Shown: positions 2,347-34,536 of the stretch, piece by piece | Layout: each line of letters starts with the position of its first letter | Numbering within the stretch: position 1 is the first letter of the stretch | Origin: Candidatus Poseidoniaceae archaeon | GTDB lineage: Archaea > Thermoplasmatota > Poseidoniia > Poseidoniales > Poseidoniaceae | Length of the DNA stretch: 64,000 nucleotides | Assembly (NCBI GenBank): GCA_964228815.1 | Contig: CAXRAL010000008.1 | Span: 3,132 to 67,131, forward strand | Reading direction: 5' to 3' | Made by a program: the position numbers and the translations under genes | Notes under the pieces: generated by a model | What the model was told of the DNA's origin: nothing | The model's database searches: none | Seen by the model: only the letters and a program-made list of their open reading frames with translations

Positions 2347-2476
2347 TGGTTGAATGCGTTGTGGTCATTGATAACATTATGTTGAGAAAAAAAATACATT
2401 TTTGCAGCATAAACAGGGTTCACCAAGGCAAAACCGACATAAGAGGGAGGGGGACACAACGGAGCGAGGCCTTCCC

Positions 2477-6823: not shown

Positions 6824-6879
6824 GCCACCCGTGAGCCTTTTTACAGGACCTTGATTGGAAAGAAAACGGAGGGAGTACC

Positions 6880-7638: not shown

Positions 7639-7641
7639 CGC

Positions 7642-8988: not shown

Positions 8989-9037
8989 GGCCTTGCCAGC
9001 GCCCTCTCCCTCATGACCGCACCGATGCGGACGGCCT

Positions 9038-10150: not shown

Positions 10151-10194
10151 GGCGTATCCATCGGTTGGCGTTTCATGAAGGAATCGCTTGGGTT

Positions 10195-10925: not shown

Positions 10926-10987
10926 CATTACCGCATCGAGAATTGATAAATACCGTGGCCTACAATGGCTAACGCCCGGAGGTGAAG

Positions 10988-22720: not shown

Positions 22721-23878
22721 TCACTCGTCAGCGGCTTCTTCATCGGCGTTACCGTCGCTCTCAACGGCTTCATCCACCGTGTCGGAGAAGAGTTCTGCTC
22801 CTTTGGGGAAATCTCCGTTCTCGTAGCGTTCACGCATCTCTTCGAGGCGACTCTTGATGCCGGCACCCGAGCGCTGCACGGCTTTGGCCACGGTGCTGAG
22901 GTTGCCGTTTTGGAGGCCAAGCTGGCGCAGGAGGTTGTACATGACGCAACCTGCGACCATCGAGATGGGGACGTTGGCTGTGGGGGCGTCCACGCTGGGC
23001 TCACCCAGGTTCGACATGACAGTGAAGAAAGCGTCCATGATGGCGCCAAGGTCATCGTCGTCAAAGCGCTTTGACAGACCGTCGCTCAGGTTTTCAGCGA
23101 CCTTGTCCAACTCGTCTTCACGGGCAGCGGCAAGGCTGAGTTGTTGAGGAGGTGCGGCCCAACCCTGGCGCACGCGCTCTTGGTAGTGCTGCATGATCGT
23201 CTTCTTGGCGTTCTTGAGTTGCTTGGCCGTAATGCCGTAGGTGTCCATCAGTTGCTTCTCGTTGACTCGCACGGTGCGGAACCAGCGAGCAGCGATAGAG
23301 GCGATGGCCAAGGCCATGATTTGCAACTTGTCTTTGTCAGTCTTGCCACGGAGTTCGGGGTGCTCCTTGCCACCTGCACGGCAGATGGCCGTCTTTGGGC
23401 ACTTGAGGCGGCGGCGTTCGCCGGGCGACAAGGTCTTGCGCGTGGCTTCTTGGGTGCGAGTGAGTTTGCGAGCAGCAGCACGTGCCAGCGGCTCAACCGC
23501 CTTGGCCATGTCAGCGCCGAACATGTTGCGGAGCGTGGCCATGAGTTGGGCGTACATCGGGTCGGTGTCTCGCTGGGAACTTCGGTCCAACTTTCCGATT
23601 CGGGCGGCGAGGCGGCGTTGCTTGGCCGTCAGGCGGTTGCCTCGACCGTCAAACTTGTCGCCAAAGGGGTTCATTTTGCCGCCCATTTTCGCGCCGCCGT
23701 GACCTGCTTCCATGTTGACGGCTTCGTTGTGGCGACCTTCGCCAAGCGAGCTGCCGCTGTTGGTGTCGGCGTCGTCGTGAAGGACGGGGTGCACCAAGGA
23801 GCACACATCGCAGATGCCCTCTCCACGGGTCAAATCAATCGTCAGGTTTCCGCTGCATTCATCGCATTTCATCATCAT
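22721..23878 (-). CDS. tfb: Divergent TFIIB/TFB-family transcription factor
   Basis: N-terminal Zn ribbon (KCDECSGNLTIDLTRGEGICDVCSLV). B-linker-like GDKFDGRGNRLTAKQRRLAARIGKLDR. Two helical cyclin-like halves and an acidic C-terminal tail. It is longer than, and divergent from, canonical TFB. ATG 23878 is preferred over TTG 23887. Confidence 0.6.
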   Translation of the reverse strand: MMMKCDECSGNLTIDLTRGEGICDVCSLVHPVLHDDADTNSGSSLGEGRHNEAVNMEAGHGGAKMGGKMNPFGDKFDGRGNRLTAKQRRLAARIGKLDRSSQRDTDPMYAQLMATLRNMFGADMAKAVEPLARAAARKLTRTQEATRKTLSPGERRRLKCPKTAICRAGGKEHPELRGKTDKDKLQIMALAIASIAARWFRTVRVNEKQLMDTYGITAKQLKNAKKTIMQHYQERVRQGWAAPPQQLSLAAAREDELDKVAENLSDGLSKRFDDDDLGAIMDAFFTVMSNLGEPSVDAPTANVPISMVAGCVMYNLLRQLGLQNGNLSTVAKAVQRSGAGIKSRLEEMRERYENGDFPKGAELFSDTVDEAVESDGNADEEAADE

Positions 23879-23895
23879 TTTTCTCAACTCCTAGG

Positions 23896-23957
23896 TTAAT
23901 GTCTCGCCACCCCATATAAAGGATTCAATTACCAGCATCTCTGCTTCTTAATGTCTC
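23896..23957 (+). repeat. 10-bp direct repeat TTAATGTCTC x2 (23896-23905 and 23948-23957)
   Basis: Read directly. The core ATGTCT recurs inverted as AGACAT at 24001-24006 and 24081-24086. Confidence 0.6.
23914..23920 (-). promoter_or_regulatory. TATA-box candidate (TTTATAT on the minus strand) for the tfb-like gene
   Basis: Lies 36-42 nt upstream of ATG 23878, which fits an archaeal TATA at about -26 with a short leader. Confidence 0.4.
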
Positions 23958-24226
23958 CTCCCGGGCCGGAAAACAGGTTTTCAACACGGGGGGAGAGACA
24001 AGACATATTCTTATTGGGCTCGAACTATAAGAAACTTCCCAAAACATCCCCGGATAGAGAGGTGTGCAATCGAGAACACTAGACATCATCTTTAGTGAGC
24101 CAATTTCACAAAGACGGAGTTAAATCCACGAGACACCAATTTCAATAGGAATGATCAGCGAAGTCAACATCCTTGCCGCGCATGTTGAAATAGCCTCGGT
24201 GCTGTTCTCCAAAACAGGCGGTTTTC

Positions 24227-27200
24227 ATGGAGGGAACACCGAGCATCACATCGGAACACGTCCCTGCAGGCGAGGGTCTTCCACCGTGGCTGTTCGAAGC
24301 CCTCTGCCACCCCATGGAGCACGCTCCGTTCATGCTTCTGCATCCTACGGAACTGCACCGTCAACGCACCCTGGAGCGCTTGAACGAGGCTGGCGTGGTG
24401 GTTACGCCCCAGTATCATCTCACCCTAAATCGCCTGGTTCGCCTTCTGCACGTAGATCTCCGGCTCCCGGTGCTGATGGATGACGAATCCAGCACCTTCA
24501 TGGCCCTTCACGCACGGTGTGCTGCGGCCGCTGAGAATGCCGAACTCCCGTTCCTCTACACGCCGGGGATTGGCAGTTGGACACTCACGAAAACACGTCG
24601 ACTTCAGCAACTGCACGGCGAACTGCTCCAACTGCGCCGCCCCTTTGCGTGGGAGGGCGACCCGGGCGCCGCGGTGTTCCATCGCTTGTGCCTTGAGACC
24701 GAAGCGGCGGCGGGTGCCATGCTGCCAGCACTGGTTTCTCGACATGTCCTTGAGGCGTTGCAGACGGCCACAGATATACCGTTTCATCTCAGTGAAGTGG
24801 CCGGCCTGATTGTCCTCGACGCCGCCCCGGACTTCAACGAAGTCGAACAAGACCTCCTCACTGCTGTATCCACTTTTACTCCTGTGCATCAGCTGCTCAA
24901 CCCTGGGTCGTTCCGGCTTGGTTACCACGGCGCTTACCTGGTGGATGAACCACCGTGCACCACAGCGAACTTGCCCGATTGGGTACCTCCACACGATGCG
25001 TGGACCGGCGACGCCACGATGTGGCAAACCGACGTGGGACGTGAGCGAGCGACCCGGTTGACGAGGGTGACCCTTGACGAACGAGGCCACGGCATGCAGG
25101 CGGCCCTGACCATGATTCAGGCGTACCGTGCGCACCACGACGGGCACATGTTGGTGGTCGATGCAGGCGTTCGAGATCGGGCCACGACCTGGTCCAACGG
25201 CTTGGCCTCCATCGGCCTTCGGTGGCATCCCGGCTCGGCCGCCATGAACCAGCAACCCACGCATCACGCCGTGGTCAGAGCCGCTCGGTTGGCACAGGGC
25301 ATGAGCGCCTGGTCGCTTGAATCACTGCGGGGCGTGTTCTTCTCCTCCGTAGTCCCCTTCAACGACGACCTGTTTCCTGAGTTGAACCATCCCAGCGAGG
25401 GAACGTGGCGCCCTCAGCCTGACGCTACCGTCTTGGACGACATCTCGCGGCAGTTCCACGTGCTCGGTGGCCCGGGCGCCATCGCCCGCTGGCTTGGTGT
25501 TCTGGCCGGGGCTGAGCCTTCCTTTGCAGAGCGACGTCCCGAAGAAAAGGCCAGGGCGCTTGAACAGACGCAGTGGTGGCTTGCCTGTTTGCTACGCACT
25601 TGGGCGCCGCTTCTCTCCCCAGAGGACCGCCATTTGCTGCGACGCCCGGTGGTGGGGTGCACCAGCGGCGTTGAACTGCCGATGCCCGATTCTCCTGTCT
25701 CCGGCATGGCGTGGCTTTCGTGGTTGCTTACCTCCATTGACGTGGCCCGGTTTGAACAGCGGCGAGCCCCCTTTGATGCAGGCTTTGGGGCCCTCCAGGC
25801 GCTCGTGGAAGCCCTGAACGCCATCAAGGCTCAACTTCTCCACCATGGTCTTCCGTTTGAGGACCATGGCGTTGCGTTTGTGGACCTTCTCGACCACATC
25901 GGGTCTTCAGCAGAGGTCACTCACCAAACTTCGCGAACCGACCGCATCAACGTGGTTACGCCCGACGACGCTCACGGATGCACCGCCGACGTGGTGCTGC
26001 TCGTTGGCATGGACGTTGATTCATGGTCGATGCGCTCTTCAATCACGCCTTGGCTGGACGCTTCGGCCCAACTTGAACTTGGGTTGTTCCAAACCGACCG
26101 CCTGGTTCGCCGTGGGCGCCATCATCTTCGCCATTTGCTGAACGCAGCCCCCACGGTGGTCGTGTTTGATTCCTCTCCTGAAGAGGGCGGAGGCCCGAGT
26201 GCACCGTTGGCTGAATGGTTAGCAGATGTCCAACGGACTGGGGCATGGGAGGCCATGCGAACCCCTCCCTCGTTCCTCCCGCCATCCACCTATGAGGGTG
26301 AAGGGGAACCTCGTCCGTTCCGATGGTCGGTGCGCGAAGACGGCCACGGCAGTTGGCTCACACCGGTGATGCACGCCACCGCCAGCACGACGTCGGGGTT
26401 GCGAACGGTTCGCTTTGGTTTCAGCGGAAGGGACCGACGTCAACAACTCGGTCTCGATGTCCGCTCACATCTCGAACCCAACGTCATGCCCAATCATGCC
26501 GTTGCTCTGGTCCATGCCTACGAAGGCGAGGTTCAGGCCGATCGAAGGCGGCGGCAGCCGCTGGCCAAACACCTTGGCGAACACACCAGTTTTGCTTGGT
26601 CAAATCGAGCACATCTGTCCAGCGTTGATGCCGTCACGCTTCGCCCGACCCGTGCTTCGCTCAAGGTGAACGGCGTTGCAGCCACCGAGTTCCCTCATCT
26701 GGGTCATCGTGAAGAGAAATCCGTCTCCGTCAGCGTCGACCCGCGACCGCTTCCGCCCTACGTCCCTTCAGAACCAGGCCTTTCACAACGCTTTGGCGTG
26801 CTCGACATGCCCCTCGAACGTGAGGTGTGGTCGCCAAGTCGCCTTGAGGCCTGGCTCAAGTGCCCACGCCAAGCGTGGTTGAAGCAACACCTCCGCGCCG
26901 ACGACGACGAAGAGATGAGCACCGAAGACATCGACATCCGAATTCGAGGTCAAGTGGTGCACGAGACGGAAGCAGCCATCCTGCATGGTCACGGGGTTCC
27001 GATGGGAGGTGAAATCACCACTGAGCCACAACCGCTCCATCTTGGCCCCATGGGTGAAGGTCGTGCAGGGTGGGATGCTGTGCTTGATTTCCTCCAGCAG
27101 GATGTTCACTGGCTGGGCCGGCACAACGCCGTTTCCGTCCATCGCACCAAGGACCTCATCGACGCCTCACCCGAGTCCTGGCAGGCTCATCAGGACGGTG

Positions 27201-27964
27201 AAATCGAACTGCCTCCCCGCGGCCGTCTCGCCCGATTGTTGAACGCTGACCTCGCGCTGGAGCACGCCGCTCCCGTGGCGATGGAATGGTCTCCCAGGGT
27301 TGAGAGCGAGCGTTCCGTTCTGCTCGACACCCTTGGGGGAGATGAAGGGGCGGGTTTCCGTCTGTTTGGTTACGCCGACCGCGTGGACGTCGTGGTCCTT
27401 CCCGAAACCCTCCGCTCAGTGCTCGTCGATCAAGGCGTCTTGGGTGAGGATGACCATGAGACACCGTTCCCGCTTCACGATGCACCGCGAGCGGCGCAAC
27501 GCTTGGTCGTCATTCGTGATTTGAAGACCGTTCGGGGCCCGGACTCGGCTTCCGCAGGCTTGCGTCACATGCGCTGCTTGTTTGAAGACCTCCAGTTGGC
27601 CCTGTACGCTCGTGCTTGGGAACTTCTGCATCCCAACGACCGCGTCATCGGTGTTGGTGCCAGCGAGGTGGGGGAATCCACCACGCACTACGTTGAACTT
27701 GACAGCGACCTCGCTGCCTTGAGCGAACACCTGTCCATCGGCGAACTCACCCATGTGTTCCCTCAACACTTCCCGGCGTCCACACCGAGCGGTACGACCA
27801 CGACCCCCTTCCGAAGGTGGATGGCTGAGCGTTTGACCGTCGCTCAACGAGCGGTTGACACTGCCCACCAAGGGCACGTTCACCCCACACCGGGTGCGCA
27901 CTGCAGCTATTGTGCCGTCGCTCACTCCTGCGATGTGTCCCAGTACAGCGGAGGTGATTTCTGA
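24227..27964 (+). CDS. addB: AddB-like subunit: inactivated helicase scaffold with a C-terminal PD-(D/E)XK nuclease and 4-Cys (Fe-S) motif
   Basis: I found no Walker A. AddB-like IVLDAAPDFNEVEQDLL and VVLLVGMDVDSWS are present. Nuclease signature: SPSRLEAWLKCPRQAW, GYADRVDVV, VIRDLKT, QLALYARAW, HCSYCAVAHSC (C...CxxCx5C). The stop overlaps the addA-like ATG (TGATG). Confidence 0.8.
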   Translation: MEGTPSITSEHVPAGEGLPPWLFEALCHPMEHAPFMLLHPTELHRQRTLERLNEAGVVVTPQYHLTLNRLVRLLHVDLRLPVLMDDESSTFMALHARCAAAAENAELPFLYTPGIGSWTLTKTRRLQQLHGELLQLRRPFAWEGDPGAAVFHRLCLETEAAAGAMLPALVSRHVLEALQTATDIPFHLSEVAGLIVLDAAPDFNEVEQDLLTAVSTFTPVHQLLNPGSFRLGYHGAYLVDEPPCTTANLPDWVPPHDAWTGDATMWQTDVGRERATRLTRVTLDERGHGMQAALTMIQAYRAHHDGHMLVVDAGVRDRATTWSNGLASIGLRWHPGSAAMNQQPTHHAVVRAARLAQGMSAWSLESLRGVFFSSVVPFNDDLFPELNHPSEGTWRPQPDATVLDDISRQFHVLGGPGAIARWLGVLAGAEPSFAERRPEEKARALEQTQWWLACLLRTWAPLLSPEDRHLLRRPVVGCTSGVELPMPDSPVSGMAWLSWLLTSIDVARFEQRRAPFDAGFGALQALVEALNAIKAQLLHHGLPFEDHGVAFVDLLDHIGSSAEVTHQTSRTDRINVVTPDDAHGCTADVVLLVGMDVDSWSMRSSITPWLDASAQLELGLFQTDRLVRRGRHHLRHLLNAAPTVVVFDSSPEEGGGPSAPLAEWLADVQRTGAWEAMRTPPSFLPPSTYEGEGEPRPFRWSVREDGHGSWLTPVMHATASTTSGLRTVRFGFSGRDRRQQLGLDVRSHLEPNVMPNHAVALVHAYEGEVQADRRRRQPLAKHLGEHTSFAWSNRAHLSSVDAVTLRPTRASLKVNGVAATEFPHLGHREEKSVSVSVDPRPLPPYVPSEPGLSQRFGVLDMPLEREVWSPSRLEAWLKCPRQAWLKQHLRADDDEEMSTEDIDIRIRGQVVHETEAAILHGHGVPMGGEITTEPQPLHLGPMGEGRAGWDAVLDFLQQDVHWLGRHNAVSVHRTKDLIDASPESWQAHQDGEIELPPRGRLARLLNADLALEHAAPVAMEWSPRVESERSVLLDTLGGDEGAGFRLFGYADRVDVVVLPETLRSVLVDQGVLGEDDHETPFPLHDAPRAAQRLVVIRDLKTVRGPDSASAGLRHMRCLFEDLQLALYARAWELLHPNDRVIGVGASEVGESTTHYVELDSDLAALSEHLSIGELTHVFPQHFPASTPSGTTTTPFRRWMAERLTVAQRAVDTAHQGHVHPTPGAHCSYCAVAHSCDVSQYSGGDF

Positions 27965-30900
27965 TGATTCAGTTCAACAACAGCCAGCGGCTTGGGTTGG
28001 ACTTGGACCGGCACATTGCGCTCGATGCAGGCGCAGGCACGGGGAAGACGACGGTGATGGCCGAGCGCTATGTTCAGCACTTGTTTGCAGCCGACCAACG
28101 AGCCACGCACGTGACTCCCATGGGGCCACGTACACCGCTGTCTGGACATGGTGCGCTTCGTGCACCCAAACGAGAACGGACGGCCCTGCAGGAATGGCCC
28201 GGCTTGCTCCCCTCAGAAGTGGTGGCCATCACCTTCACTCGTAAGTCAGCGGCTGAACTCAAAGCACGTATCCGTCATCGACTCGCTCAGGCTCGGGCAC
28301 GCCCCCCCTCACCCGAAGACCGCGACGGCGCGTTTGACCCGAGGTTGCGCAACGACGGCGACGTGGAAATGCTCCTCTCTGGGTTGGATGAAGCCCCCAT
28401 TTCCACCATCGATGCCTTCCTCAGCCAACTGGTGCAACCCTACGTTGACCTCGTTGCCCTCTACCCCTCCAACCAGCAAGTATCAGAGGAGCGAAAACCA
28501 CTGATGGTGCGAGACACGCTCCACGCTGTTTGGCGGATCCGTTCCGTTGACGATGCTCGAGAAGCGGGTGTACTGAATCATCATCAGGCCTTCTTGGACG
28601 CTCGCAACCGTCTCGTGAATCGACTGGGCGGGCAGGACCAAGCGGAGATTGTCCTCGGTGGATTGCTCGACCGTTCGTTGTTTGTTGAACAATCTCACCG
28701 GTCCATGATTCAGCGGGCAGAAGACATGGGCTTGGCCTGGAACGGCCGGGGACCTGCTCCCGTGGACGTGTTGCTCAACACCATCGCTGAGCCGGTGACC
28801 ACCCTGCTCCCCAATTTCATTGAGGAATTGCAGCGAAGATTGGGCGATTGGGTGCAAACTTTCCTGCCCTACCACGCCAATTGCATTGCGCCGGCCGAGG
28901 CCACGACGTCCCTGACCCGATTCAATCACCTCGTACGGGTCACGTCGCAACCGCTCCCAACCGAGGCCGGCGAGCAACTTTCGTGGGTTTGGAAGGCCTT
29001 GCTCGGCATCGCCACGGCCTCAGGTTTGGTCAAACCCTCATGCACGTTTTTCCCGAGGGACGCCCTTCCCAACGGCAACGGCTGGCCTTCTGGCATGACT
29101 TCAAAAACGGGGGCAACAGGGCTTTCAAAAGACGAAAAAAACGCCCTCTACGAGGCTGGAAAAACACACCTTTCTGGCTTGCGTTCGTTGCTAAATTCAG
29201 CCAACGGCACCCTCATCCGCTTGTTGGCTCGCTCTGCTTTTTTGCTCAACCCAATGGACGGCTTTGACGGGATGCCGCTCGACAGCCCTCTTCGATTGGA
29301 ACCCTTGGTCGACCCGCTGCCCAGCGAGGCGGGTGACCGAGGCACCTACGTCTCCGCCGAGCTTCAAGTACAGGTGCTCAGCGACCTTCAGGTGATTCAC
29401 ATGGCGTGCAATCAAATTCTCGCTCGAAGAAAATCCCTCGACAACATGCATGATTTTGACGACATGCAGCGCTTTGCTGCCGATTTGCTGCTGGCCCGGT
29501 GCCCCGACATCTGCCGGCATCGCTACCCGCCGGCGGTCATCGACGCATTGGACGGGCTTGGCGATGAGCCGTGGACCGACGCACACATCGCCCGCGCACT
29601 CACGCTACTCAACGATCGACCAACACTGCTGGAAGACCTTCAACGCCGCGTGGCCATTCTGGGCGAACTGCGCCGCCAGTATCGCGCTTTCATCATTGAC
29701 GAATACCAAGACACCAACCCCTCCCACTACCGTTTGCTTGCCCGACTGTGGGGCCGCCGGCGCCGTCATCCCGACGACCCTGCGGGTCCGTTGGGTGCGT
29801 GGGACCCCACCGTGTGCATTGTTGGTGATATGAAACAGAGCATCTACCGTTTCCGACAAGCCGAGGTCTCCGTGATGCGACGAGCGGTGGAAGCCATCCG
29901 TCAGTTCAACATTGATGAAGAGGGTGAGACTCGCCTTGGCCACCTTCGCGAGGCCGGCTGTGGCCGCGACCCCCGCCCCGTGGGTGGTGGAGGTGAAACC
30001 GGGTCGTTTTCCAACGAACACAGCGGCGAAGTTTCTGTCCCCCACACCTTTGTTCGCTTTGACGAGGAGGACCAGGCGGGTCAACCTTCCATCGTCGGTC
30101 ATCGCTTGTTGCGCCGTGCTGAAGGTCACGTTGATTTGACTTCCAATCACCGAACACGGCACGATTTGATGGAGACCATGAACGACATGTTCGACGAGGT
30201 CTTCGATTCTCGGTACCACGACCTTCCCGGTGATTGGCATGCGGAGGCGCAACGGCTTCGCCCGGCCCGCGCCACCGAGCACCCCGGCGTGTTGGAATGG
30301 CTCCTCCCGGTACCGGGCACCATCACCGAAGTTCCCCTTGACTTGGACGTGGCCGTCAACACCTTCGCCGACCCGAACGCCTCGCAAGTTCACCTCGAAC
30401 ACGAATTGCTCGCCGACCGTCTTCACGCCTTGCTCAACGAGTCATCCACGAGGGTATGGGACAGTGAAGCCGCTTCGTGGACCACGGTCACCGAAGCAGG
30501 CCCACCGGTTCGACCACAGGACATCATGATCCTCATCAACTCACGAAAACACCTGCCAGATTTGGTCGATCGCCTTCGGGCACGAAACATCCCAGTCATG
30601 GCCGACCGACAGGGCTTGCTGTCCATGCAACCGGTGGTTCAACCGCTGATGGCGATGCTGGCACTGATGGCCCGTCCGACCATGCGTAAAGCGGGCGTTG
30701 AACTCGGTCGTTCTGCCGTTGTCGGTCTCTCTGAACGGCAGTTGCACGAGGCCATGGTCTCGCTCGAGGAAGGTGCTGAAGTGTTGCCCCATTTGATCGA
30801 ACATGCACCGTCCGAAGCCGTTCGGTCGCTCTTGGCTCACCTTCACCAACTCATGAGCTGGGGCGCTTTGTACGACGTGTTTGACGCCGTGCTCGACCAC

Positions 30901-32898
30901 TCCGATTTGCTCGTGGCCTATCCAGATGACGCCCAACGTCAATTTGCCGAGGCCTGGGTGGCCATTGTCCAATCCATCGGCAACGACACGGGTCACGATG
31001 CAGCCGCCATGTACCGCCGCATGGTCGAGGTTCGTGCTTTGGGGCGTCAAGGGCCCCAAGCCATTACGCAACCCGATTCAACAGCCGTTCAGATCATGAC
31101 GATTCACGGCTCCAAAGGGCTGCAAGCGCCGGTGGTCGTGGTTTCGGGGTTGTTTGCAGCCGGCAAGGCCGACGCCAGCATGTCCGTCCAGGACAACATC
31201 CTCGTCACCCCGCAGGTGTTGGCCGGTCGCATTCAACCCTGGCGAGCCAAAGACCGCCCAGAGGACGGCCTGTGGGCTTTCGCGGCAGAGATGAACAAGG
31301 CGCAGGACAAGGCAGAGCTTCGTCGGAAATTCTACGTAGCGTTGACCCGAGTGAAAGACCGACTCATCATCACGGGCAGCCCGGGCAACCGTTCGACCTT
31401 TGATGAAGAGAGTGGAACGCTGTCGGTTCGGTTTGCTCCCGACCCACGAACGATGGGTCGCATGTTCATCGAGGGGCTACGAAGAGCTACCTGGTGCGCT
31501 GGTGGCGACGCTCCTTGGGTGTCAGCGGCTGAACTTGAGGCACCTGTATTGCCTCCTTTTTCCTCGCATCAGCACCAAACCGCGCTCAACCCGCGTGCGT
31601 TGTTGAACGATTCGCAGCTTGGCGAGCACGGCTTGAGCGGTTTGAGATTGTACCACCATCCGTTGTGCTTCGACCCCGTGGACACGACCTCACCTCAACA
31701 ACGTGCACGGGCGCTGGCCACGCATCTTGAGACCATGGAAGCGACCGGCCTCTCCACGGCGCCCCCGCTTCGTCTTCAAGAGAACATCAAGGGTGCTGCT
31801 CATCACCTCGACGCCACCTTTGCTTGCCCACGGCGGTACTGGTTGGAACACGTACGGGGATGGTCGACCGAACCCTTCCATCTCCCACAGGCTTCGACAG
31901 CAACACCTCCACAGCGGGCATGGCCCGAGCCGACCACGTTCGGTTTGATGATGCACCGGGTGCTGGAAATCGGGCTGCGAAATCCTCGTGCGAAGTCGGA
32001 GCAGACGCCGCCGTTGGACGCCTCATGGCTGCACGAAGCCGACGACGATCTGGCCTCTGGAGAGACCTTGGGGCGCGTCATGAACGAATTCGGATTTGGG
32101 GCTGAACAAACCGGGTCCTCGCCTGAGGCCTCGTGGCGTGAGCGATTGATGCATCTGAGTTCGCTCATCGACCGTGGCCTGCTCGGCCAGTGGGTGCAAG
32201 GAGCGACCTTGCACGGGTGGACGGTTGAAGCGGTGAGAACCGAACTTCCGTTCTTCCATCGGGAGCGCCTCCAACGGGCGACCTCGGCGGGTGAATCGGT
32301 GGAAAGCGAGCCGCATGGTCCATCGGTGGTTGAGCACGTCAACATGGATTTCAGTGGTCGCGCTGATTTGGTGTTGGCGCTGGTCGACGAGCACGGGCAA
32401 GGGGCGCTGAAGGTGGTGGACCTCAAAACGCGAGGTTGTTTGGGGGCCTTCAACGTCGAAGACCCTTCCAAAGGTCACCCGCTCCAACAGGTGGGTCCCG
32501 AGGAAACCAATCCCGTCCCACAAAGCGATGATGAAGCGGCCATCTTACACGAACACCGTTTGCAGCTTACGCTGTATTCGATGGCCTTGGAGGCCATTGA
32601 AGCACGAAAACCTGCATCCGAACGCCGCCACATCCTGCCACCAGCACTGCTGTTGGGCGCCAACGGCCGCATCGTGGAACTGTCGGAGGGCGCCTTTGAA
32701 CAAGCCAAAGCGGACTTGTTGGCGCATTTGGACTGGCGAGCTTCGGTCCATCTTGACACTCATCACGGCGAACCCGGGCGCCTCCCCTCCGGGTCGCTCA
32801 CCTGCCAGCAATGTGCGTTTTATCGGGGCGATTTGCGCCGTTGCGCTCCTGAAGGTGAACCCTTGGGTTTCGTCAGTCGCCTCAACGATGAGCCGTGA
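27964..32898 (+). CDS. addA: AddA/RecB-like UvrD-family helicase-nuclease (1644 aa)
   Basis: Walker A AGAGTGKT, motif II FIIDEYQDTNP, TIHGSKGLQAP and FYVALTRVKDRLII. The C-terminal nuclease carries ACPRRYW, GRADLVLAL, VVDLKT, QLTLYSMAL and CQQCAFYRGDLRRC. Confidence 0.85.
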   Translation: MIQFNNSQRLGLDLDRHIALDAGAGTGKTTVMAERYVQHLFAADQRATHVTPMGPRTPLSGHGALRAPKRERTALQEWPGLLPSEVVAITFTRKSAAELKARIRHRLAQARARPPSPEDRDGAFDPRLRNDGDVEMLLSGLDEAPISTIDAFLSQLVQPYVDLVALYPSNQQVSEERKPLMVRDTLHAVWRIRSVDDAREAGVLNHHQAFLDARNRLVNRLGGQDQAEIVLGGLLDRSLFVEQSHRSMIQRAEDMGLAWNGRGPAPVDVLLNTIAEPVTTLLPNFIEELQRRLGDWVQTFLPYHANCIAPAEATTSLTRFNHLVRVTSQPLPTEAGEQLSWVWKALLGIATASGLVKPSCTFFPRDALPNGNGWPSGMTSKTGATGLSKDEKNALYEAGKTHLSGLRSLLNSANGTLIRLLARSAFLLNPMDGFDGMPLDSPLRLEPLVDPLPSEAGDRGTYVSAELQVQVLSDLQVIHMACNQILARRKSLDNMHDFDDMQRFAADLLLARCPDICRHRYPPAVIDALDGLGDEPWTDAHIARALTLLNDRPTLLEDLQRRVAILGELRRQYRAFIIDEYQDTNPSHYRLLARLWGRRRRHPDDPAGPLGAWDPTVCIVGDMKQSIYRFRQAEVSVMRRAVEAIRQFNIDEEGETRLGHLREAGCGRDPRPVGGGGETGSFSNEHSGEVSVPHTFVRFDEEDQAGQPSIVGHRLLRRAEGHVDLTSNHRTRHDLMETMNDMFDEVFDSRYHDLPGDWHAEAQRLRPARATEHPGVLEWLLPVPGTITEVPLDLDVAVNTFADPNASQVHLEHELLADRLHALLNESSTRVWDSEAASWTTVTEAGPPVRPQDIMILINSRKHLPDLVDRLRARNIPVMADRQGLLSMQPVVQPLMAMLALMARPTMRKAGVELGRSAVVGLSERQLHEAMVSLEEGAEVLPHLIEHAPSEAVRSLLAHLHQLMSWGALYDVFDAVLDHSDLLVAYPDDAQRQFAEAWVAIVQSIGNDTGHDAAAMYRRMVEVRALGRQGPQAITQPDSTAVQIMTIHGSKGLQAPVVVVSGLFAAGKADASMSVQDNILVTPQVLAGRIQPWRAKDRPEDGLWAFAAEMNKAQDKAELRRKFYVALTRVKDRLIITGSPGNRSTFDEESGTLSVRFAPDPRTMGRMFIEGLRRATWCAGGDAPWVSAAELEAPVLPPFSSHQHQTALNPRALLNDSQLGEHGLSGLRLYHHPLCFDPVDTTSPQQRARALATHLETMEATGLSTAPPLRLQENIKGAAHHLDATFACPRRYWLEHVRGWSTEPFHLPQASTATPPQRAWPEPTTFGLMMHRVLEIGLRNPRAKSEQTPPLDASWLHEADDDLASGETLGRVMNEFGFGAEQTGSSPEASWRERLMHLSSLIDRGLLGQWVQGATLHGWTVEAVRTELPFFHRERLQRATSAGESVESEPHGPSVVEHVNMDFSGRADLVLALVDEHGQGALKVVDLKTRGCLGAFNVEDPSKGHPLQQVGPEETNPVPQSDDEAAILHEHRLQLTLYSMALEAIEARKPASERRHILPPALLLGANGRIVELSEGAFEQAKADLLAHLDWRASVHLDTHHGEPGRLPSGSLTCQQCAFYRGDLRRCAPEGEPLGFVSRLNDEP

Positions 32899-33568
32899 GG
32901 ACCAGCGTCCCGGCCCAACCTTCCTTGGCGCCTACTTGTTCTGCCTTGATGTCGATAAAACCGGCCGCTTCCAACCCGTCAGTCCACTCGGCGATGCTCA
33001 AGAGCGCCATGTGGACGTTCAACGACGGCCCCCAGTCGTGGCTCGACGGGTTTTCCGTGTAGTGGTCGACCCCGATAACAAGTCGGCCGCCGGGGTTCAT
33101 CCACTCGTCGTGCATGGTATGGAGAAAGCCAAGCGGATCCTCGAGATAGTACAAGCACTCCATCGTGTGCACCAAATCCACGGGCTCGTCCGGCTTCCAG
33201 GCCGGGAGCATGGCTTCCACGTAGTCGCCCTCCGGGTCAACGGCCTGTGCTTTGGCGATCATCGACGGTGCGCCGTCCACGCCGCTGGCGTGCTGGCACA
33301 GGTCGTGTGCGGCAAGCCGACGGACGACCCAACCGTTTCCGCATCCGATGTCCATCGCCGTGAACGGACGGTTCCACCCGTTGAGGAGACGGTCAAGCAT
33401 CACGTCCACGCTGGCGCTGTGGCCGCGTTCCATGCCTTCATCCCGACCGACGTCGGCCCATTCGCTGAACAAATCCGTCGCCGGTCGCAGGCTCATGCAA
33501 GGTGGCCACCCGCGGCGTCTCATGAAGGTGTTCATGGCGAAAGGAAGATGCACGGCGTTGCTTTCCAA
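32882..33568 (-). CDS. Class I SAM-dependent methyltransferase
   Basis: Motif I AMDIGCGNGWVVRRL with a downstream acidic loop; about 220 aa. An alternative start is ATG 33535. The 3' end overlaps addA-like by 17 nt (convergent). Confidence 0.75.
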   Translation of the reverse strand: MESNAVHLPFAMNTFMRRRGWPPCMSLRPATDLFSEWADVGRDEGMERGHSASVDVMLDRLLNGWNRPFTAMDIGCGNGWVVRRLAAHDLCQHASGVDGAPSMIAKAQAVDPEGDYVEAMLPAWKPDEPVDLVHTMECLYYLEDPLGFLHTMHDEWMNPGGRLVIGVDHYTENPSSHDWGPSLNVHMALLSIAEWTDGLEAAGFIDIKAEQVGAKEGWAGTLVLTAHR

Positions 33569-33573
33569 GGTCC

Positions 33574-34536
33574 ATGCTTGACACCACCACGACGCTGGCC
33601 GATGTTCTCTACCCGCCCATCGAAGCGCACACCACCGGCATGCTGACCGTCTCGGACATGCACACCATCGCCTGGGAGCAAAGCGGAAATCCCGATGGCA
33701 TTCCTGTCGTGGTTATTCACGGTGGTCCCGGCGGTGGAGGTCAGCCTTCCTACCGGCAGTACTTCGACCCGGAGGCGTTCAACATCGTGCAGTTTGATCA
33801 GCGAGGCTGTGGCCAATCCACGCCGTATGCTGAATTGGAGGATAACAACACGCACGCATCAGTGAGTGATTTGGAAACCCTCCGCGAACACTTGGGCATT
33901 GAAACGTGGCACGTGTTCGGTGGCTCATGGGGCTCCACCCTGTCCCTCATCTATGCGCAGCATCATCCTCAGCGGGTCCGAAGTTTGGTCCTCCGGGGCA
34001 TCTTCATGTGTCGGAAATCCGAATTACACTGGTTCTATCAGGACGGTGCCAGCCACCTCTTCCCCGACGCCTTTGCGCCATACCGCGACCACATCCCCGC
34101 GGCGGAGCAAGCCGACTTGATTCGCGCCTACTATGCCCGACTGACCAGCGATGACATCGAGGTTCGTCGTGCAGCCGCCAAGGAGTGGACGCGCTGGGAG
34201 ATGGCCACCAGTCGACTGTTTCCCGACCCGGAATACCTCGACAAGGCCGAAGACCTCGATTTCGCCGTGGCGTTTGCCCGTATCGAGTGCCACTACTTCA
34301 TCAACGCTATTTTCGTTGAAGAGGCCTACATTCTCAACCACGTCGATGCCATTCAACACATCCCGACGGTCATCGTGCAGGGCCGATACGACGTGGTCTG
34401 CCCGCCGCGGAGTGCTTGGGAACTTCACCAAGCGATGCCGCAGAGCCGACTGGTGATGGTGCCGGATGCCGGCCACTCGATGGGCGAAGTCAGCATCGCC
34501 CGTGAATTGGTGGCGGCGACCGATGCGCTTCGCTGA
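33574..34536 (+). CDS. pip: Proline iminopeptidase (prolyl aminopeptidase)
   Basis: GNPDGIPVVVIHGGPGGG, QRGCGQS, GGSWGSTL nucleophile elbow and C-terminal DAGHS. Confidence 0.9.
   Translation: MLDTTTTLADVLYPPIEAHTTGMLTVSDMHTIAWEQSGNPDGIPVVVIHGGPGGGGQPSYRQYFDPEAFNIVQFDQRGCGQSTPYAELEDNNTHASVSDLETLREHLGIETWHVFGGSWGSTLSLIYAQHHPQRVRSLVLRGIFMCRKSELHWFYQDGASHLFPDAFAPYRDHIPAAEQADLIRAYYARLTSDDIEVRRAAAKEWTRWEMATSRLFPDPEYLDKAEDLDFAVAFARIECHYFINAIFVEEAYILNHVDAIQHIPTVIVQGRYDVVCPPRSAWELHQAMPQSRLVMVPDAGHSMGEVSIARELVAATDALR

What the first reader, a model, noticed from the sequence alone, without database searches (positions are those of the whole stretch)
24227..32898. Bacterial-type AddB/AddA-like helicase-nuclease pair in an archaeal chromosome
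Archaeal double-strand-break end resection is classically done by Mre11-Rad50-HerA-NurA, while AddAB/RecBCD/AdnAB are bacterial machines. Here a 1245-aa AddB-like protein has no Walker A that I could find but carries a C-terminal PD-(D/E)XK nuclease. It is translationally coupled (TGATG, 27962-27966) to a 1644-aa UvrD/AddA-like helicase-nuclease that retains all the core helicase motifs. The AddA-like subunit is roughly 400 aa longer than the bacterial AddA I remember, so it carries large insertions. This could be a horizontally acquired recombination machine or a repurposed, defence-type helicase-nuclease.
Basis: partly seen in the sequence, partly recalled or inferred. Interest (0 to 1): 0.7.

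Follow-up and report, generated by a model that had tools for sequence, protein, structure and literature searches.

The report
Divergent AddAB-type helicase-nuclease in marine archaea
Marine Group II archaea, among the most abundant archaea in the ocean, carry as a conserved core gene pair a very divergent, enlarged version of the bacterial AddAB machine that chews back broken DNA ends, a machine usually said to be absent from archaea.

Summary
Two ORFs, 24227-27964 (1245 aa) and 27964-32898 (1644 aa), overlap in TGATG. The window is archaeal (MCM, GatE, Trm1) and comes from Candidatus Poseidoniales (Marine Group II, MGII).

The downstream protein (P2) is an intact UvrD/AddA-type helicase with a C-terminal PD-(D/E)XK nuclease. 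Its best solved relative is B. subtilis AddA.

The upstream protein (P1) has no Walker A. By sequence it is recognisable only through its C-terminal nuclease. An AlphaFold model of a 72%-identical homologue matches AddB best (ranks 1-5, E about 2e-15), then AdnA, then UvrD and RecC.

The pair is not a recent or mobile acquisition:
- GC content is uniform across it.
- It occurs in 143 species-representative genomes, including the closed MG-II chromosome.
- It always sits in the same housekeeping synteny.
- The stop/start overlap is conserved.
- Its divergence parallels that of housekeeping genes.
- No defence genes lie nearby.

It is far below the curated AddA and AddB cut-offs. P2 is about 410 aa longer than AddA, with conserved insertions. 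Both nuclease domains carry a 1+3 cysteine (iron-staple) pattern, a combination I also found in a cyanobacterial plasmid AddAB. More canonical AddAB pairs sit on haloarchaeal plasmids.

Verdict: a real, new variant of a known kind. Its function (DNA-end resection) is inferred, not shown.

The parts
23888..24226 (+). Intergenic region upstream of the AddB-like gene; presumed promoter region, shared with the divergently transcribed 388-aa gene
   Evidence: ORF map and sequence. No promoter analysis was done; the role is inferred from position only.
24227..27964 (+). AddB-like gene (P1, 1245 aa): a degenerate UvrD-like helicase scaffold without Walker A, followed by a C-terminal iron-staple PD-(D/E)XK nuclease
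   Evidence: ORF. Pfam PDDEXK_1 at 1093-1236. The AlphaFold model of the 72%-identical homologue P0133 (pLDDT 82) best matches AddB chain B (E 2e-15), then AdnA, UvrD and RecC. 12 of 19 family members hit TIGR02786 addB_alphas (best E 2.8e-10). No Walker A.
24227..26806 (+). P1 N-terminal helicase-like region (about residues 1-860), with no helicase sequence motifs
   Evidence: Foldseek matches to UvrD, Rep and PcrA over about 660 columns, and full-length matches to AddB, AdnA and RecC. No PDB sequence match, even with a profile. No Walker A.
25811..26221 (+). P1 residues 529-665: the only stretch with sequence-level similarity to bacterial and haloarchaeal AddB
   Evidence: TIGR02786 addB_alphas positions 565-698. 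hhalign against the haloarchaeal AddB-like protein, E 8e-5, at P1 568-659.
26810..27961 (+). P1 nuclease domain: C879 in 'WLKCPRQAW' (26846-26896), 'GYADRVD' (27365-27391), D1098-L-K1100 (27506-27532), Q1123..Y1127 (27587-27613), C1226-x2-C1229-x5-C1235 (27902-27931)
   Evidence: All these residues are invariant in 49 family members. Coordinates verified. The pattern equals the AddB iron staple described in PMC3378879.
27962..27966 (+). TGATG stop/start overlap (translational coupling)
   Evidence: Conserved as TGATG/TAATG (33 loci) or ATGA (25 loci), or as GTG/TTG-start overlaps, in 69 related loci.
27964..32898 (+). AddA-like gene (P2, 1644 aa): an active-looking SF1A UvrD-type helicase followed by a C-terminal PD-(D/E)XK nuclease with a 1+3 Cys pattern
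   Evidence: Pfam, NCBIfam, PDB profile search with best hit AddA 3u44_A at E 5e-32, and family conservation.
28027..28050 (+). P2 helicase motif I / Walker A, AGAGTGKT
   Evidence: Invariant G25-T29; regex match in 19 of 19 sequences; coordinates verified.
29689..29862 (+). P2 helicase motifs II (FIIDEYQDTN) and III (VGDMKQSIYRFRQA)
   Evidence: Invariant columns D579-P586 and G621-V635; aligned to AddA motifs II and III; coordinates verified.
29881..30126 (+). Clade-specific insertion of about 66-80 aa between helicase motifs III and IV, with the invariant loop G667-R-D-P-R-P-x-G-x-G676
   Evidence: It is a gap in the haloarchaeal AddA in hhalign and in B. subtilis AddA. The invariant residues are listed.
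30127..31374 (+). P2 helicase motifs IV (LTSNHRT), V (IMTIHGSKGLQ) and VI (YVALTRVKDRLI), with the 2A/2B domains between them
   Evidence: Aligned to AddA residues 471-884; invariant columns; coordinates verified.
31801..32895 (+). P2 nuclease domain: C1288 in 'ACPRRYWLEH' (31807-31851), GRAD D1468 (32353-32376), D1486-L-K1488 (32413-32439), Q1534..Y1538 (32560-32580), C1614-x2-C1617-x9-C1627 (32803-32844)
   Evidence: Invariant or near-invariant columns. AlphaFold model pLDDT 79. Foldseek top hits are the AddB nuclease (E 3.6e-7), AddA, AdnA, Dna2, ACE1/Cas4 and RecB. The same pattern is present in the most divergent relative, L085.

Best explanation
The two genes encode the subunits of a heterodimeric AddAB-type helicase-nuclease. 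It is a vertically inherited core component of the Poseidoniales (Marine Group II) genome.

Proposed mechanism, by analogy with AddAB and AdnAB:
- The complex binds a double-stranded DNA end.
- The AddA-like subunit (P2) is the single ATP-driven 3'->5' SF1A motor. It pulls the 3'-ended strand through the complex and cuts it with its own C-terminal nuclease.
- The AddB-like subunit (P1) is a catalytically dead helicase scaffold, with no Walker A and hence no nucleotide binding. It holds the fork, may scan the passing 3' strand for a regulatory sequence, and cuts the displaced 5' strand with its C-terminal iron-staple nuclease.
- The product would be a 3' single-stranded tail for the archaeal recombinase RadA. 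As in bacteria, the same activity would also destroy unprotected linear foreign DNA.

Shown here: the domain architectures, the conserved catalytic and cysteine residues, the AddB-like fold of P1, conserved gene order and coupling, the chromosomal housekeeping context, and the distribution across the order.

Inferred: heterodimer formation, division of labour between the strands, Fe-S cluster binding, sequence regulation, and the hand-over to RadA.
For: - P2 helicase: all SF1A motifs are invariant.
- P2 family scores: AddA 151 bits, RecB 124, AddA-alpha 104, PcrA 79.
- P2 PDB profile search: AddA 113 bits, AdnB 70, UvrD1 66, RecB 49.
- P2 bacterial tblastn hits are annotated addA.
- P1 fold: the model matches AddB chain B at ranks 1-5 over about 1350 columns (E 2e-15), then AdnA (5e-12), then UvrD and RecC.
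- P1 sequence: 12 of 19 members hit addB_alphas.
- Catalytic residues: both nuclease domains keep invariant D...D-x-K...Q-x3-Y motifs and a 1+3 Cys pattern. P1's C-x2-C-x5-C is identical in spacing to the AddB iron staple.
- Gene order: addB upstream of addA is the layout of all four comparator loci, and three of the four also overlap stop and start. The overlap is conserved in 69 MGII loci.
- Vertical inheritance and housekeeping context.
- No defence signature.
Against: - Scores are far below NCBI's equivalog cut-offs: 151 against 707.65 bits for AddA, and 16.5 against 486.5 bits for AddB.
- By sequence P1 is almost an orphan. It has no PDB sequence hit and only 394 hits at E <= 0.001 among 1.84 billion representatives.
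- TM-scores to AddB are low (0.33), so the relative arrangement of the domains is not well reproduced.
- No interaction, activity or cofactor data exist.
- No Chi-like motif was found, although 64 kb gives little power.
- AddAB normally works with RecA and bacterial SSB. Compatibility with RadA and RPA is assumed.
- I could not determine whether these genomes also have Mre11-Rad50-HerA-NurA.
Confidence: 0.7

Rival explanations
1. The pair is primarily an anti-virus or foreign-DNA-degrading system (a 'defence-type' helicase-nuclease), not a repair machine. It would degrade linear viral DNA entering the cell, as RecBCD and AddAB also do in bacteria.
For: - P2 has generic similarity to the defence helicase GajB (62 bits).
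- UvrD-Cas4-like fusions have been linked to defence contexts (PMC5704561).
- The more canonical haloarchaeal plasmid AddAB sits next to a BREX gene.
- Bacterial AddAB and RecBCD have a dual repair and defence role (established knowledge).
Against: - P1 has no PADLOC hit, and P2's GajB score is far below its AddA score.
- There is no GajA, restriction-modification, BREX or other defence gene nearby. The neighbours are PTH2, beta-eliminating lyase, a class I SAM methyltransferase, a hydrolase, PS decarboxylase, YchF and PabB.
- The position is fixed in 143 species-representative genomes, and divergence parallels housekeeping genes. Defence islands are typically patchy and mobile.
- The two roles are not mutually exclusive.
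Confidence: 0.15
2. P2 is a member of the stand-alone UvrD-Cas4-like fusion family described in bacteria and mesophilic archaea, acting alone as an accessory helicase-nuclease. P1 is an unrelated PD-(D/E)XK protein that merely lies upstream.
For: - P2 has the same architecture: a UvrD helicase plus a Cas4-like 4-Cys nuclease with a 'CPRxxW' motif.
- The P2 nuclease model matches iron-staple nucleases (AddB, AdnA, Dna2, ACE1/Cas4) at least as well as the AddA and RecB nucleases.
Against: - P1's fold is AddB/AdnA-like over its full length.
- The stop/start overlap is conserved in 69 loci.
- The two genes co-occur even in the most divergent relative.
- No type III restriction-modification or Dcm/Vsr context is present.
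- A bona fide cyanobacterial addB-addA pair also has a Cys-cluster AddA, so a Cas4-like nuclease on the motor subunit is compatible with AddAB.
Confidence: 0.07
3. The machine processes replication intermediates (reversed or stalled forks, flaps; a Dna2-like role) and is not dedicated to double-strand-break resection.
For: - The P2 nuclease model matches Dna2 (E 8e-6).
- MCM lies 11 kb upstream in the same conserved region.
- Bacterial AddAB also processes reversed forks (title and abstract of PMC13288102, as listed).
Against: - Nothing links the pair specifically to the replisome. The proximity to MCM is synteny and the two are not in one operon, since several unrelated genes lie between them.
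- The architecture is that of an end-resection enzyme.
- This role would overlap with, not replace, the main explanation.
Confidence: 0.07
4. The pair is bacterial contamination, a chimeric assembly, or a very recent horizontal acquisition.
For: One related contig is labelled Verrucomicrobiales (L016).
Against: - L016 carries GatE and the full MGII synteny, so it is a mis-binned archaeal contig.
- The window has MCM, GatE and Trm1 and uniform GC.
- The pair is present in the closed MG-II chromosome and in 143 species representatives in the same place.
- Loci span GC 0.39-0.71, so the pair shares its hosts' composition.
Confidence: 0.01

Closest known systems
Bacillus subtilis AddAB (PDB 3U44, 3U4Q, 4CEH, 4CEI, 4CEJ)
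   Same: - Two-gene operon with addB upstream of addA.
- AddA is an SF1A motor plus a RecB-type nuclease. AddB is a degenerate helicase fold plus a nuclease with a 1+3 Cys iron staple (C-x2-C-x5-C).
- It is the best fold match for P1 and the best sequence match for P2.
   Different: - B. subtilis AddB keeps a Walker A motif that binds nucleotide (PMC3321194). P1 has none.
- AddA there has no Cys cluster (PMC3378879). P2 has C1288 + C1614/C1617/C1627.
- P2 is 412 aa longer.
- Scores are about 5-fold (AddA) to 30-fold (AddB) below the equivalog cut-offs.
- The host uses RadA, not RecA.
Cyanobacterial plasmid AddAB-like pair (Synechococcus sp. NIES-970 plasmid3, AP017962.1; locus L089)
   Same: The AddB-like subunit lacks Walker A and carries C-x2-C-x5-C. 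The AddA also carries a C-terminal Cys cluster and hits the Cas4 model. The genes overlap by 1 nt. This is the same combination of features as the MGII pair.
   Different: - It is much smaller (890 + 1078 aa against 1245 + 1644 aa).
- The Cys spacing in AddA is x2/x5, not x2/x9.
- It is plasmid-borne.
- Similarity to the MGII proteins is only weak and partial.
Haloarchaeal plasmid AddAB-like pairs (e.g. Natrinema sp. J7-2 pJ7-1, NC_018225.1; locus L086)
   Same: The host is archaeal and the addB-like gene overlaps the addA-like gene. These AddA-like genes are the best tblastn matches to P2 in the plasmid collection. The AddB lacks Walker A and has the C-x2-C-x5-C staple.
   Different: - The pairs are of canonical size and sequence (AddA 364 bits to addA_alphas; AddB hits the addB_alphas, addB_Gpos and rexB models).
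- The AddA nuclease has no cysteines.
- They lie on plasmids, next to BrxA and ParA, so the context is mobile and possibly defensive.
- Identity to P2 is only about 26%, over the helicase part.
Mycobacterial AdnAB (PDB 6PPJ, 6PPR, 7SJR, 9NP6)
   Same: A heterodimer of two UvrD-like-plus-nuclease subunits, with the Fe-S cluster in the non-motor subunit AdnA (PMC13000450). It is the second-best fold match for P1 (AdnA) and the second-best sequence match for P2 (AdnB).
   Different: AdnA retains Walker A and B motifs and binds nucleotide. P1 has no such motifs. AdnB has no reported Fe-S cluster.
RecBCD (E. coli)
   Same: RecB is an SF1A helicase-nuclease and RecC is a dead-helicase scaffold. P1 matches RecC structurally (E 8e-8) and P2 hits the RecB model at 124 bits.
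   Different: RecC has no active nuclease motifs or Cys cluster, whereas P1 has both. No RecD-like SF1B helicase gene is adjacent to the pair.
UvrD-Cas4-like fusion proteins (Hudaiberdiev et al. 2017, PMC5704561)
   Same: A UvrD-type helicase fused to a Cas4-like Cys-cluster nuclease, reported in bacteria and mesophilic archaea. This is the architecture of P2.
   Different: Those are single proteins, stand-alone or next to type III restriction-modification or Dcm/Vsr genes. Here P2 is always coupled to an AddB-like partner in a housekeeping context. MGII is not in their data as held.
Archaeal Mre11-Rad50-HerA-NurA
   Same: The presumed cellular task: 5' strand resection of DNA ends for RadA-mediated recombination.
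   Different: No homology. It uses a hexameric FtsK-like translocase plus the NurA nuclease, not SF1A and PD-(D/E)XK proteins. Whether MGII genomes also encode it could not be tested here.

Membership tests
AddAB-type helicase-nuclease: AddA subunit | Complete set of SF1A (UvrD/PcrA-type) helicase motifs I-VI | tested here: met
   Motifs I, Ia, II, III, IV, V and VI are present and invariant in 19 sequences down to 44% identity. They are also present in the 32%-identical relative L085.
AddAB-type helicase-nuclease: AddA subunit | C-terminal RecB-family PD-(D/E)XK nuclease with catalytic D, D/E-x-K and Q-x3-Y | tested here: met
   Pfam PDDEXK_1. D1468, D1486-L-K1488 and Q1534..Y1538 are invariant. 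The model matches the AddB, AddA, AdnA, Dna2 and RecB nucleases.
AddAB-type helicase-nuclease: AddA subunit | Score above the curated equivalog cut-off of TIGR02785 (addA_Gpos) or TIGR02784 (addA_alphas) | tested here: not met
   151 bits against 707.65, and 103.8 bits against 860.75. The annotated cyanobacterial addA (303 bits) and the haloarchaeal AddA (364 bits) also fail these cut-offs.
AddAB-type helicase-nuclease: AddB subunit | N-terminal region with a UvrD-like four-subdomain helicase fold that lacks the helicase motifs | tested here: met
   AlphaFold model (pLDDT 82). Foldseek gives full-length matches to AddB chain B (E 2e-15) and about 660-column matches to UvrD, Rep and PcrA. No helicase motifs are detectable by sequence. 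Caveat: TM-score is only 0.33.
AddAB-type helicase-nuclease: AddB subunit | C-terminal nuclease with four cysteines, one before and three after the domain (iron staple; present in many but not all AddB) | tested here: met
   C879, C1226, C1229 and C1235 are invariant in 49 sequences, with C-x2-C-x5-C spacing. The definition comes from PMC3378879. Actual cluster binding was not tested.
AddAB-type helicase-nuclease: AddB subunit | N-terminal Walker A motif (Bacillus-type AddB) | tested here: not met
   0 matches in P1 and 1 of 49 in the family. The motif is not universal: the Sphingomonas, Synechococcus and haloarchaeal AddB-like proteins also lack it, while Pusillibacter has it.
AddAB-type helicase-nuclease: AddB subunit | Score above the curated cut-off of TIGR02773, TIGR02786 or TIGR02774 | tested here: not met
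   The window protein scores 16.5 bits against 486.5 for TIGR02786. The best family member reaches E 2.8e-10.
AddAB-type helicase-nuclease: operon | addB immediately upstream of addA, co-transcribed | tested here: met
   The order, and the overlap in three of four, are the same as in Pusillibacter (4-nt overlap), Synechococcus (1 nt) and Natrinema (8 nt); in Sphingomonas the genes are adjacent. The overlap is conserved in 69 MGII loci. Co-transcription itself was not tested.
AddAB-type helicase-nuclease: function | Heterodimer with DNA-end-dependent helicase and dual nuclease activity, regulated by Chi | not testable with these tools
   This needs biochemistry. A k-mer scan for a Chi-like motif in 64 kb was uninformative.
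AdnAB | Both subunits retain ATP-binding motifs (AdnA has Walker A and B and binds nucleotide) | tested here: not met
   P1 has no Walker A. The AdnA features are taken from PMC3321194 and PMC13000450.
RecBCD | Three subunits including a RecD SF1B helicase; RecC has no active nuclease | tested here: not met
   No third helicase gene is adjacent in the window or in related loci. P1 has an intact nuclease motif set and a Cys cluster.
UvrD-Cas4-like fusion (Hudaiberdiev 2017) | Single-protein helicase-nuclease, stand-alone or next to type III restriction-modification or Dcm/Vsr genes; monophyletic helicase clade | tested here: inconclusive
   The architecture of P2 fits. The context does not: there are no restriction-modification or Dcm/Vsr genes, the neighbouring methyltransferase is a generic class I SAM enzyme, and there is an obligate AddB-like partner. 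Phylogenetic placement was not tested because no sequences of that clade were available.
Known anti-phage defence systems (PADLOC-DB) | Match to a defence-system protein model, with the system's partner genes nearby | tested here: not met
   P1 and three neighbours give no hits. P2 gives only generic GajB/UvrD similarity (62 bits), with no GajA nearby.

The most novel reading that the evidence does not exclude
In the Poseidoniales lineage an AddAB-type machine has taken over DNA-end resection from the canonical archaeal HerA-NurA system. It would work with the eukaryote-like recombinase RadA, and possibly under the control of a Chi-like sequence read by the dead-helicase subunit. That would be the first case of a bacterial-style, sequence-regulated resection machine feeding an archaeal/eukaryotic-type recombinase. 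The conserved clade-specific insertions in P2 would be the candidate adaptation for that partnership.
Probability: 0.25. Interest if true: 0.8.

Novelty: new variant of a known kind. Interest (0 to 1): 0.55.

Why it matters
Current papers on archaeal repair still state that RecBCD and AddAB are absent from archaea (bioRxiv 10.64898/2026.05.08.723854). Here an AddAB-type pair is a fixed core component of one of the most abundant archaeal orders in the ocean, and more canonical pairs sit on haloarchaeal plasmids.

If the MGII pair is active, several things follow:
- It would show how a bacterial-type end-resection machine can be integrated with archaeal RadA and RPA.
- It would raise the question of Chi-like regulation in an archaeon.
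- It bears on CRISPR spacer acquisition and virus defence in MGII, since both depend on such nucleases in bacteria.
- It gives a tractable biochemical handle (two genes, expressible together) on the DNA metabolism of an uncultured lineage.
- It shows that curated AddA and AddB models miss a broad fringe of divergent pairs, so annotation pipelines label them only 'UvrD-helicase domain-containing' or 'PD-(D/E)XK nuclease family' proteins.

Tried and rejected
- PDB sequence searches with P1 (single sequence and 19-sequence profile) and with the P2 C-terminal domain (single sequence and profile) found nothing useful. The fold had to be tested through structure prediction.
- Profile-profile comparison of the P2 nuclease domain with P1, and with the haloarchaeal and cyanobacterial AddA and AddB, gave only motif-level signal. 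The origin of the Cys-cluster nuclease on P2 (duplication of P1's domain, or inheritance) stays open.
- I first thought that Fe-S-type nucleases on both subunits might be unique to MGII. I rejected this after the cyanobacterial plasmid AddA proved to have a C-x2-C-x5-C cluster too.
- The Chi-like motif search (k = 5-8, Markov-corrected over-representation and strand skew) on the 64-kb window gave nothing convincing: best z is about 5, and GGCGTTGC shows a 14:1 strand skew of unknown meaning.
- The PADLOC scan gave no defence assignment.
- The conserved upstream genes were considered as possible third components and rejected. The 300-aa ORF is a signal-peptide, membrane-anchored CxxC protein, and the 388-aa ORF is a zinc-ribbon TFIIB-like protein.
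- The last homology search, with the most divergent AddB-like protein P0198, returned only itself, so its lineage could not be named.
- Literature searches for AddAB or RecB in MGII/Poseidoniales found no description.
- The presence of mre11, rad50, herA and nurA elsewhere in the genome could not be checked. Only the region around the pair is accessible with these tools, and none of the ORFs I scanned in the window is one of them.
- The bacterial donor could not be identified. The listed homologues of P1 and P2 are all from this archaeal clade, and no broad bacterial sequence set was available for a tree.


Full report
OBSERVATION

The junction reads TGATG at 27962-27966, so the TGA stop of P1 and the ATG start of P2 share one base.

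The window is archaeal. It encodes MCM (10982-13117, 630 bits), archaeal GatE (13169-15184, 566 bits, above the curated cut-off) and Trm1. GC content is flat at about 0.60 across the pair and its flanks.

Close relatives in species-representative genomes are labelled Poseidonia sp., Candidatus Poseidoniales or Poseidoniaceae, up to 98% identical. The organism is therefore a Marine Group II (MGII) archaeon.

THE DOWNSTREAM PROTEIN (P2)

Pfam finds UvrD-helicase, AAA_19, UvrD_C, UvrD_C_2 and a C-terminal PDDEXK_1 domain.

NCBIfam ranks the family models as follows: AddA (Firmicutes type) 151 bits, RecB 124, AddA (alpha type) 104, the epsilon-type 'RecB-like helicase' 80, PcrA 79, UvrD 58. All are far below the curated cut-offs.

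A 19-sequence family profile searched against PDB sequences gives B. subtilis AddA first (113 bits, E 5e-32). AdnB follows (70 bits), then UvrD1, PcrA and RecB (49 bits). Bacterial tblastn hits in the plasmid collection are annotated addA.

All helicase motifs are invariant across the family:
- I: AGAGTGKT, residues 22-29
- Ia: residues 86-104
- II: DEYQD, 579-583
- III: GDMKQSIYRFRQA, 621-633
- IV: residues 722-732
- V: residues 1043-1058
- VI: residues 1121-1137

The nuclease motifs are also invariant: D1468 in GRAD, D1486-L-K1488 and Q1534..Y1538.

P2 is 412 aa longer than B. subtilis AddA and 433 aa longer than a haloarchaeal AddA. The excess is spread over several places:
- the region between motifs I and II (about +176 aa);
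- a 66-80-aa insertion between motifs III and IV, containing the invariant loop GRDPRPxGxG;
- the linker and nuclease region (about +200 aa).

These insertions are conserved in length across the whole clade: homologues are 1630-1666 aa down to 44% identity.

THE UPSTREAM PROTEIN (P1)

By sequence only the C-terminal PDDEXK_1 domain is recognisable. PDB sequence searches with the protein or with a family profile find nothing except a weak Cas4 N-terminal motif match.

There is no Walker A in P1, and only 1 chance match in 49 family members.

Weak but repeated similarity to AddB does exist. 12 of 19 members hit TIGR02786 (addB_alphas, best E 2.8e-10), and 5 hit the AddB-related model TIGR03623. 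The matches fall in residues 529-665. That same stretch aligns to a haloarchaeal AddB-like protein (hhalign E 8e-5).

The decisive test was structural. I modelled P0133, a 72%-identical homologue that covers P1 residues 58-1245, with a 49-sequence alignment. The model has mean pLDDT 82 and pTM 0.55.

Foldseek against the PDB gave these ranks:
- Ranks 1-5: chain B (AddB) of the five B. subtilis AddAB structures, E 2e-15 to 2e-14, about 1350 aligned columns.
- Ranks 6-8: AdnA, E 5e-12 to 6e-10.
- Below these: UvrD (E 5e-8, about 660 columns, showing that the N-terminal half has a helicase fold independent of the nuclease) and RecC (E 8e-8).

TM-scores are low (0.33), so the mutual arrangement of the domains is not reproduced. 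The class assignment (AddB, AdnA or RecC-like dead helicase) is nevertheless clear.

The nuclease domain keeps invariant 'GYADRVD', D1098-L-K1100 and Q1123..Y1127. It also keeps four invariant cysteines: C879 in 'CPRQAW', and C1226-x2-C1229-x5-C1235. This is exactly the 'one before, three after' iron-staple arrangement described for AddB (PMC3378879; PMC3321194).

CYSTEINES IN THE MOTOR SUBUNIT

P2 also has a 1+3 pattern around its nuclease domain. C1288 lies in 'ACPRRYW', and C1614-x2-C1617-x9-C1627 lies at the C-terminus. The first three are invariant and the last is present in 90% or more of the sequences.

An AlphaFold model of residues 1141-1644 (pLDDT 79, pTM 0.71) matches the following, all within a narrow E-value range: AddB nuclease (3.6e-7, ranks 1-3), AddA (5.5e-6), AdnA, Dna2, the Cas4-family protein ACE1, and RecB.

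In the characterised systems the cluster sits only in the non-motor subunit: AddB and AdnA. I therefore checked controls:
- The haloarchaeal, Pusillibacter and Sphingomonas AddA proteins have no such cysteines.
- The AddA of a cyanobacterial plasmid pair (Synechococcus sp. NIES-970) has C-x2-C-x5-C at its C-terminus and hits the Cas4 model (49.7 bits).
- That cyanobacterial pair's AddB-like partner also lacks Walker A.

So the combination seen in MGII is unusual but not unique. Metal binding itself is untested.

DISTRIBUTION AND INHERITANCE

P2 homologues (top 120 of 553 hits) and P1 homologues (48 hits) are all full-length. Where named, they come from Poseidoniales.

A scan of one genome per GTDB species found P1 relatives in 143 species representatives. 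All 80 loci kept are MGII-labelled, including the closed MG-II chromosome CM001443.1. The one exception is a 'Verrucomicrobiales' contig that carries GatE and the full MGII synteny, so it is mis-binned.

An exhaustive HMM search of 1.84 billion representative proteins with a P1 profile found only 394 hits at E <= 0.001. About 30 are full-length and the rest are fragments. Where named, they are Poseidoniales or 'Euryarchaeota'. The family is thus extremely narrow in sequence space.

Synteny is conserved at 44-50% P2 identity. The order is: PTH2, beta-eliminating lyase, an 800-aa protein, two minus-strand genes, P1, P2, a convergent class I SAM methyltransferase, an alpha/beta hydrolase, PS decarboxylase, radical SAM, an EF-hand protein, YchF and PabB.

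The most divergent member, P0198, lies on a 3.0-Mb contig with 71% GC. It still shows MCM, GatE, PTH2, the overlapping pair, PS decarboxylase and radical SAM. It also has the same Walker A and cysteine features.

Identity of the pair falls in step with housekeeping genes. GatE falls from 59% to 48%, P1 from 41% to 31% and P2 from 47% to 32%. The loci span GC 0.39-0.71.

In 69 loci the stop/start overlap is TGATG or TAATG (33 loci), ATGA (25 loci), or mostly a GTG or TTG-start overlap.

All this indicates vertical inheritance from the ancestor of the clade and selection for coupled expression. If the pair came from bacteria, the transfer was ancient. I could not identify a donor.

THE DEFENCE-TYPE ALTERNATIVE

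PADLOC models give nothing for P1 or for the conserved neighbours. P2 shows only generic UvrD-type similarity to GajB (62 bits, well below its AddA score), and there is no GajA nearby.

The neighbouring methyltransferase belongs to generic small-molecule-type SAM methyltransferase families, not to DNA methylase families.

The known UvrD-Cas4-like fusions of bacteria and mesophilic archaea are single proteins. They stand alone or lie next to type III restriction-modification or Dcm/Vsr genes (PMC5704561). P2 shares their architecture but not their context, and it always has an AddB-like partner.

A role in degrading foreign linear DNA is not excluded, since bacterial AddAB and RecBCD do both. 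The locus itself has no defence-island character.

ADDAB IN OTHER ARCHAEA

The best tblastn matches to P2 in the plasmid collection are 'UvrD-helicase domain-containing proteins' on haloarchaeal plasmids.

On Natrinema pJ7-1 this gene (1211 aa) is overlapped by an upstream 'PD-(D/E)XK nuclease family protein' (884 aa). The pair lies next to BrxA and ParA.

These two proteins score 364 bits (addA_alphas) and 58, 57 and 46 bits (addB_alphas, addB_Gpos, rexB). They form a fairly canonical AddAB pair.

The statement that AddAB is absent from archaea is therefore already inaccurate for haloarchaeal plasmids. What is particular to MGII is that a highly diverged, enlarged pair is a fixed chromosomal core feature of a whole order.

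MECHANISM (INFERRED)

By analogy with AddAB and AdnAB, P1 and P2 form a heterodimer that engages duplex DNA ends.

P2 is the only motor. It moves 3'->5' on the 3'-ended strand and cleaves that strand with its nuclease.

P1 cannot bind ATP. It provides the scaffold and possibly a sequence-scanning channel, and it cleaves the 5'-ended strand with its iron-staple nuclease, which in AddAB also sits at the fork.

The outcome would be a 3' tail for RadA. The architecture, catalytic residues, fold and coupling are shown here. Complex formation, strand assignment, cofactor binding, regulation and the link to RadA are inferred.

WHAT COULD NOT BE DONE

- Presence or absence of Mre11, Rad50, HerA and NurA elsewhere in MGII genomes.
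- A donor phylogeny.
- A meaningful Chi search: the 64-kb k-mer scan was uninformative.
- Any biochemistry.

No paper in the searchable library describes this pair in MGII. JGI's automatic annotation does call some P2 homologues 'exoDNAse V beta subunit', so the RecB/AddA-like nature of P2 is visible to pipelines. P1 is annotated only as hypothetical or as a PD-(D/E)XK nuclease family protein.

VERDICT

The finding is real and correctly interpreted. It is a new variant of a known kind: an AddAB-type helicase-nuclease that is archaeal, chromosomal, order-wide, strongly diverged and enlarged. Its AddB-like subunit lacks Walker A, and both nuclease domains are of the Cys-cluster type.

Interest is moderate to good (0.55). 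It contradicts a common textbook-level statement and opens a testable question about how a bacterial-type resection machine works with archaeal recombination proteins. Against that, horizontal acquisition of bacterial repair genes by mesophilic archaea is a familiar theme, and the function here remains inferred.

Noticed in passing
L086 (Natrinema sp. J7-2 plasmid pJ7-1, NC_018225.1) 4333-10615; similar hits on more than 30 haloarchaeal plasmids: Haloarchaeal plasmids carry a fairly canonical addB-addA pair (884 + 1211 aa, 8-nt overlap; AddA 364 bits to addA_alphas). It is annotated only as 'PD-(D/E)XK nuclease family protein' and 'UvrD-helicase domain-containing protein', and here it lies next to a BREX gene (BrxA) and ParA. 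This contradicts the common statement that AddAB is absent from archaea.
   Followed up: partly
L016 (NZEQ01000040.1, labelled 'Verrucomicrobiales bacterium isolate ARS100'): This contig carries GatE, the beta-eliminating lyase and the full MGII synteny, with a 69%-identical P1. It is an archaeal MGII contig mis-binned into a bacterial MAG.
   Followed up: yes
L089 (Synechococcus sp. NIES-970 plasmid3, AP017962.1) 2578-8486: A cyanobacterial plasmid AddAB-like pair in which the AddA subunit also has a C-terminal C-x2-C-x5-C cluster and a Cas4-model hit, and the AddB-like subunit lacks Walker A. The AddB-like gene is annotated 'hypothetical protein'. AddAB with Cys-cluster nucleases on both subunits may be an under-described subclass.
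   Followed up: partly
L085 (ENA ERZ26167216, contig ctg495766, 3,002,195 bp; 71% GC): A very GC-rich 3.0-Mb archaeal contig carries the most divergent copy of the pair (29-32% identity), with partial MGII synteny (MCM, GatE, PTH2, PS decarboxylase). Its AddB-like protein is a singleton in the 5.8-billion-protein collection. The lineage is unidentified, and the contig is larger than typical MGII genomes.
   Followed up: partly
window 45648-53987 (-) and 2402-6823 (+): Two very large ORFs (2779 aa and 1473 aa) have no Pfam hit, and the 1473-aa ORF also has no NCBIfam hit. They are possibly giant surface proteins typical of MGII. They were not examined further.
   Followed up: no
window 32528-33646 (+) versus 32882-33568 (-): The 372-aa plus-strand ORF just after P2 has no family hit. 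It overlaps a minus-strand class I SAM methyltransferase gene that is conserved in synteny, so the plus-strand ORF is probably spurious. The methyltransferase's 3' end overlaps the 3' end of P2 by 17 nt, tail to tail.
   Followed up: yes
window 21772-22674 (-) and 22721-23887 (-): Two conserved genes are transcribed divergently from the pair. One is a 300-aa protein with a signal peptide, a WCDNC (CxxC) motif and a C-terminal membrane anchor; a 31%-identical homologue lies directly upstream of the pair even in L085. The other is a 388-aa protein with an N-terminal CxxC...CxxC zinc ribbon (weak Zn_Ribbon_TF hit in a homologue). No link to DNA repair is apparent.
   Followed up: partly
window, whole 64 kb: The octamer GGCGTTGC occurs 14 times on the + strand and once on the - strand. 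I did not check whether this reflects a repetitive gene, codon usage or a polar motif.
   Followed up: no
window 29881-30126 (P2 residues 640-721): The clade-specific insertion between helicase motifs III and IV contains an invariant glycine- and proline-rich loop (G667-R-D-P-R-P-x-G-x-G676). It has no counterpart in B. subtilis or haloarchaeal AddA. Its function is unknown.
   Followed up: partly
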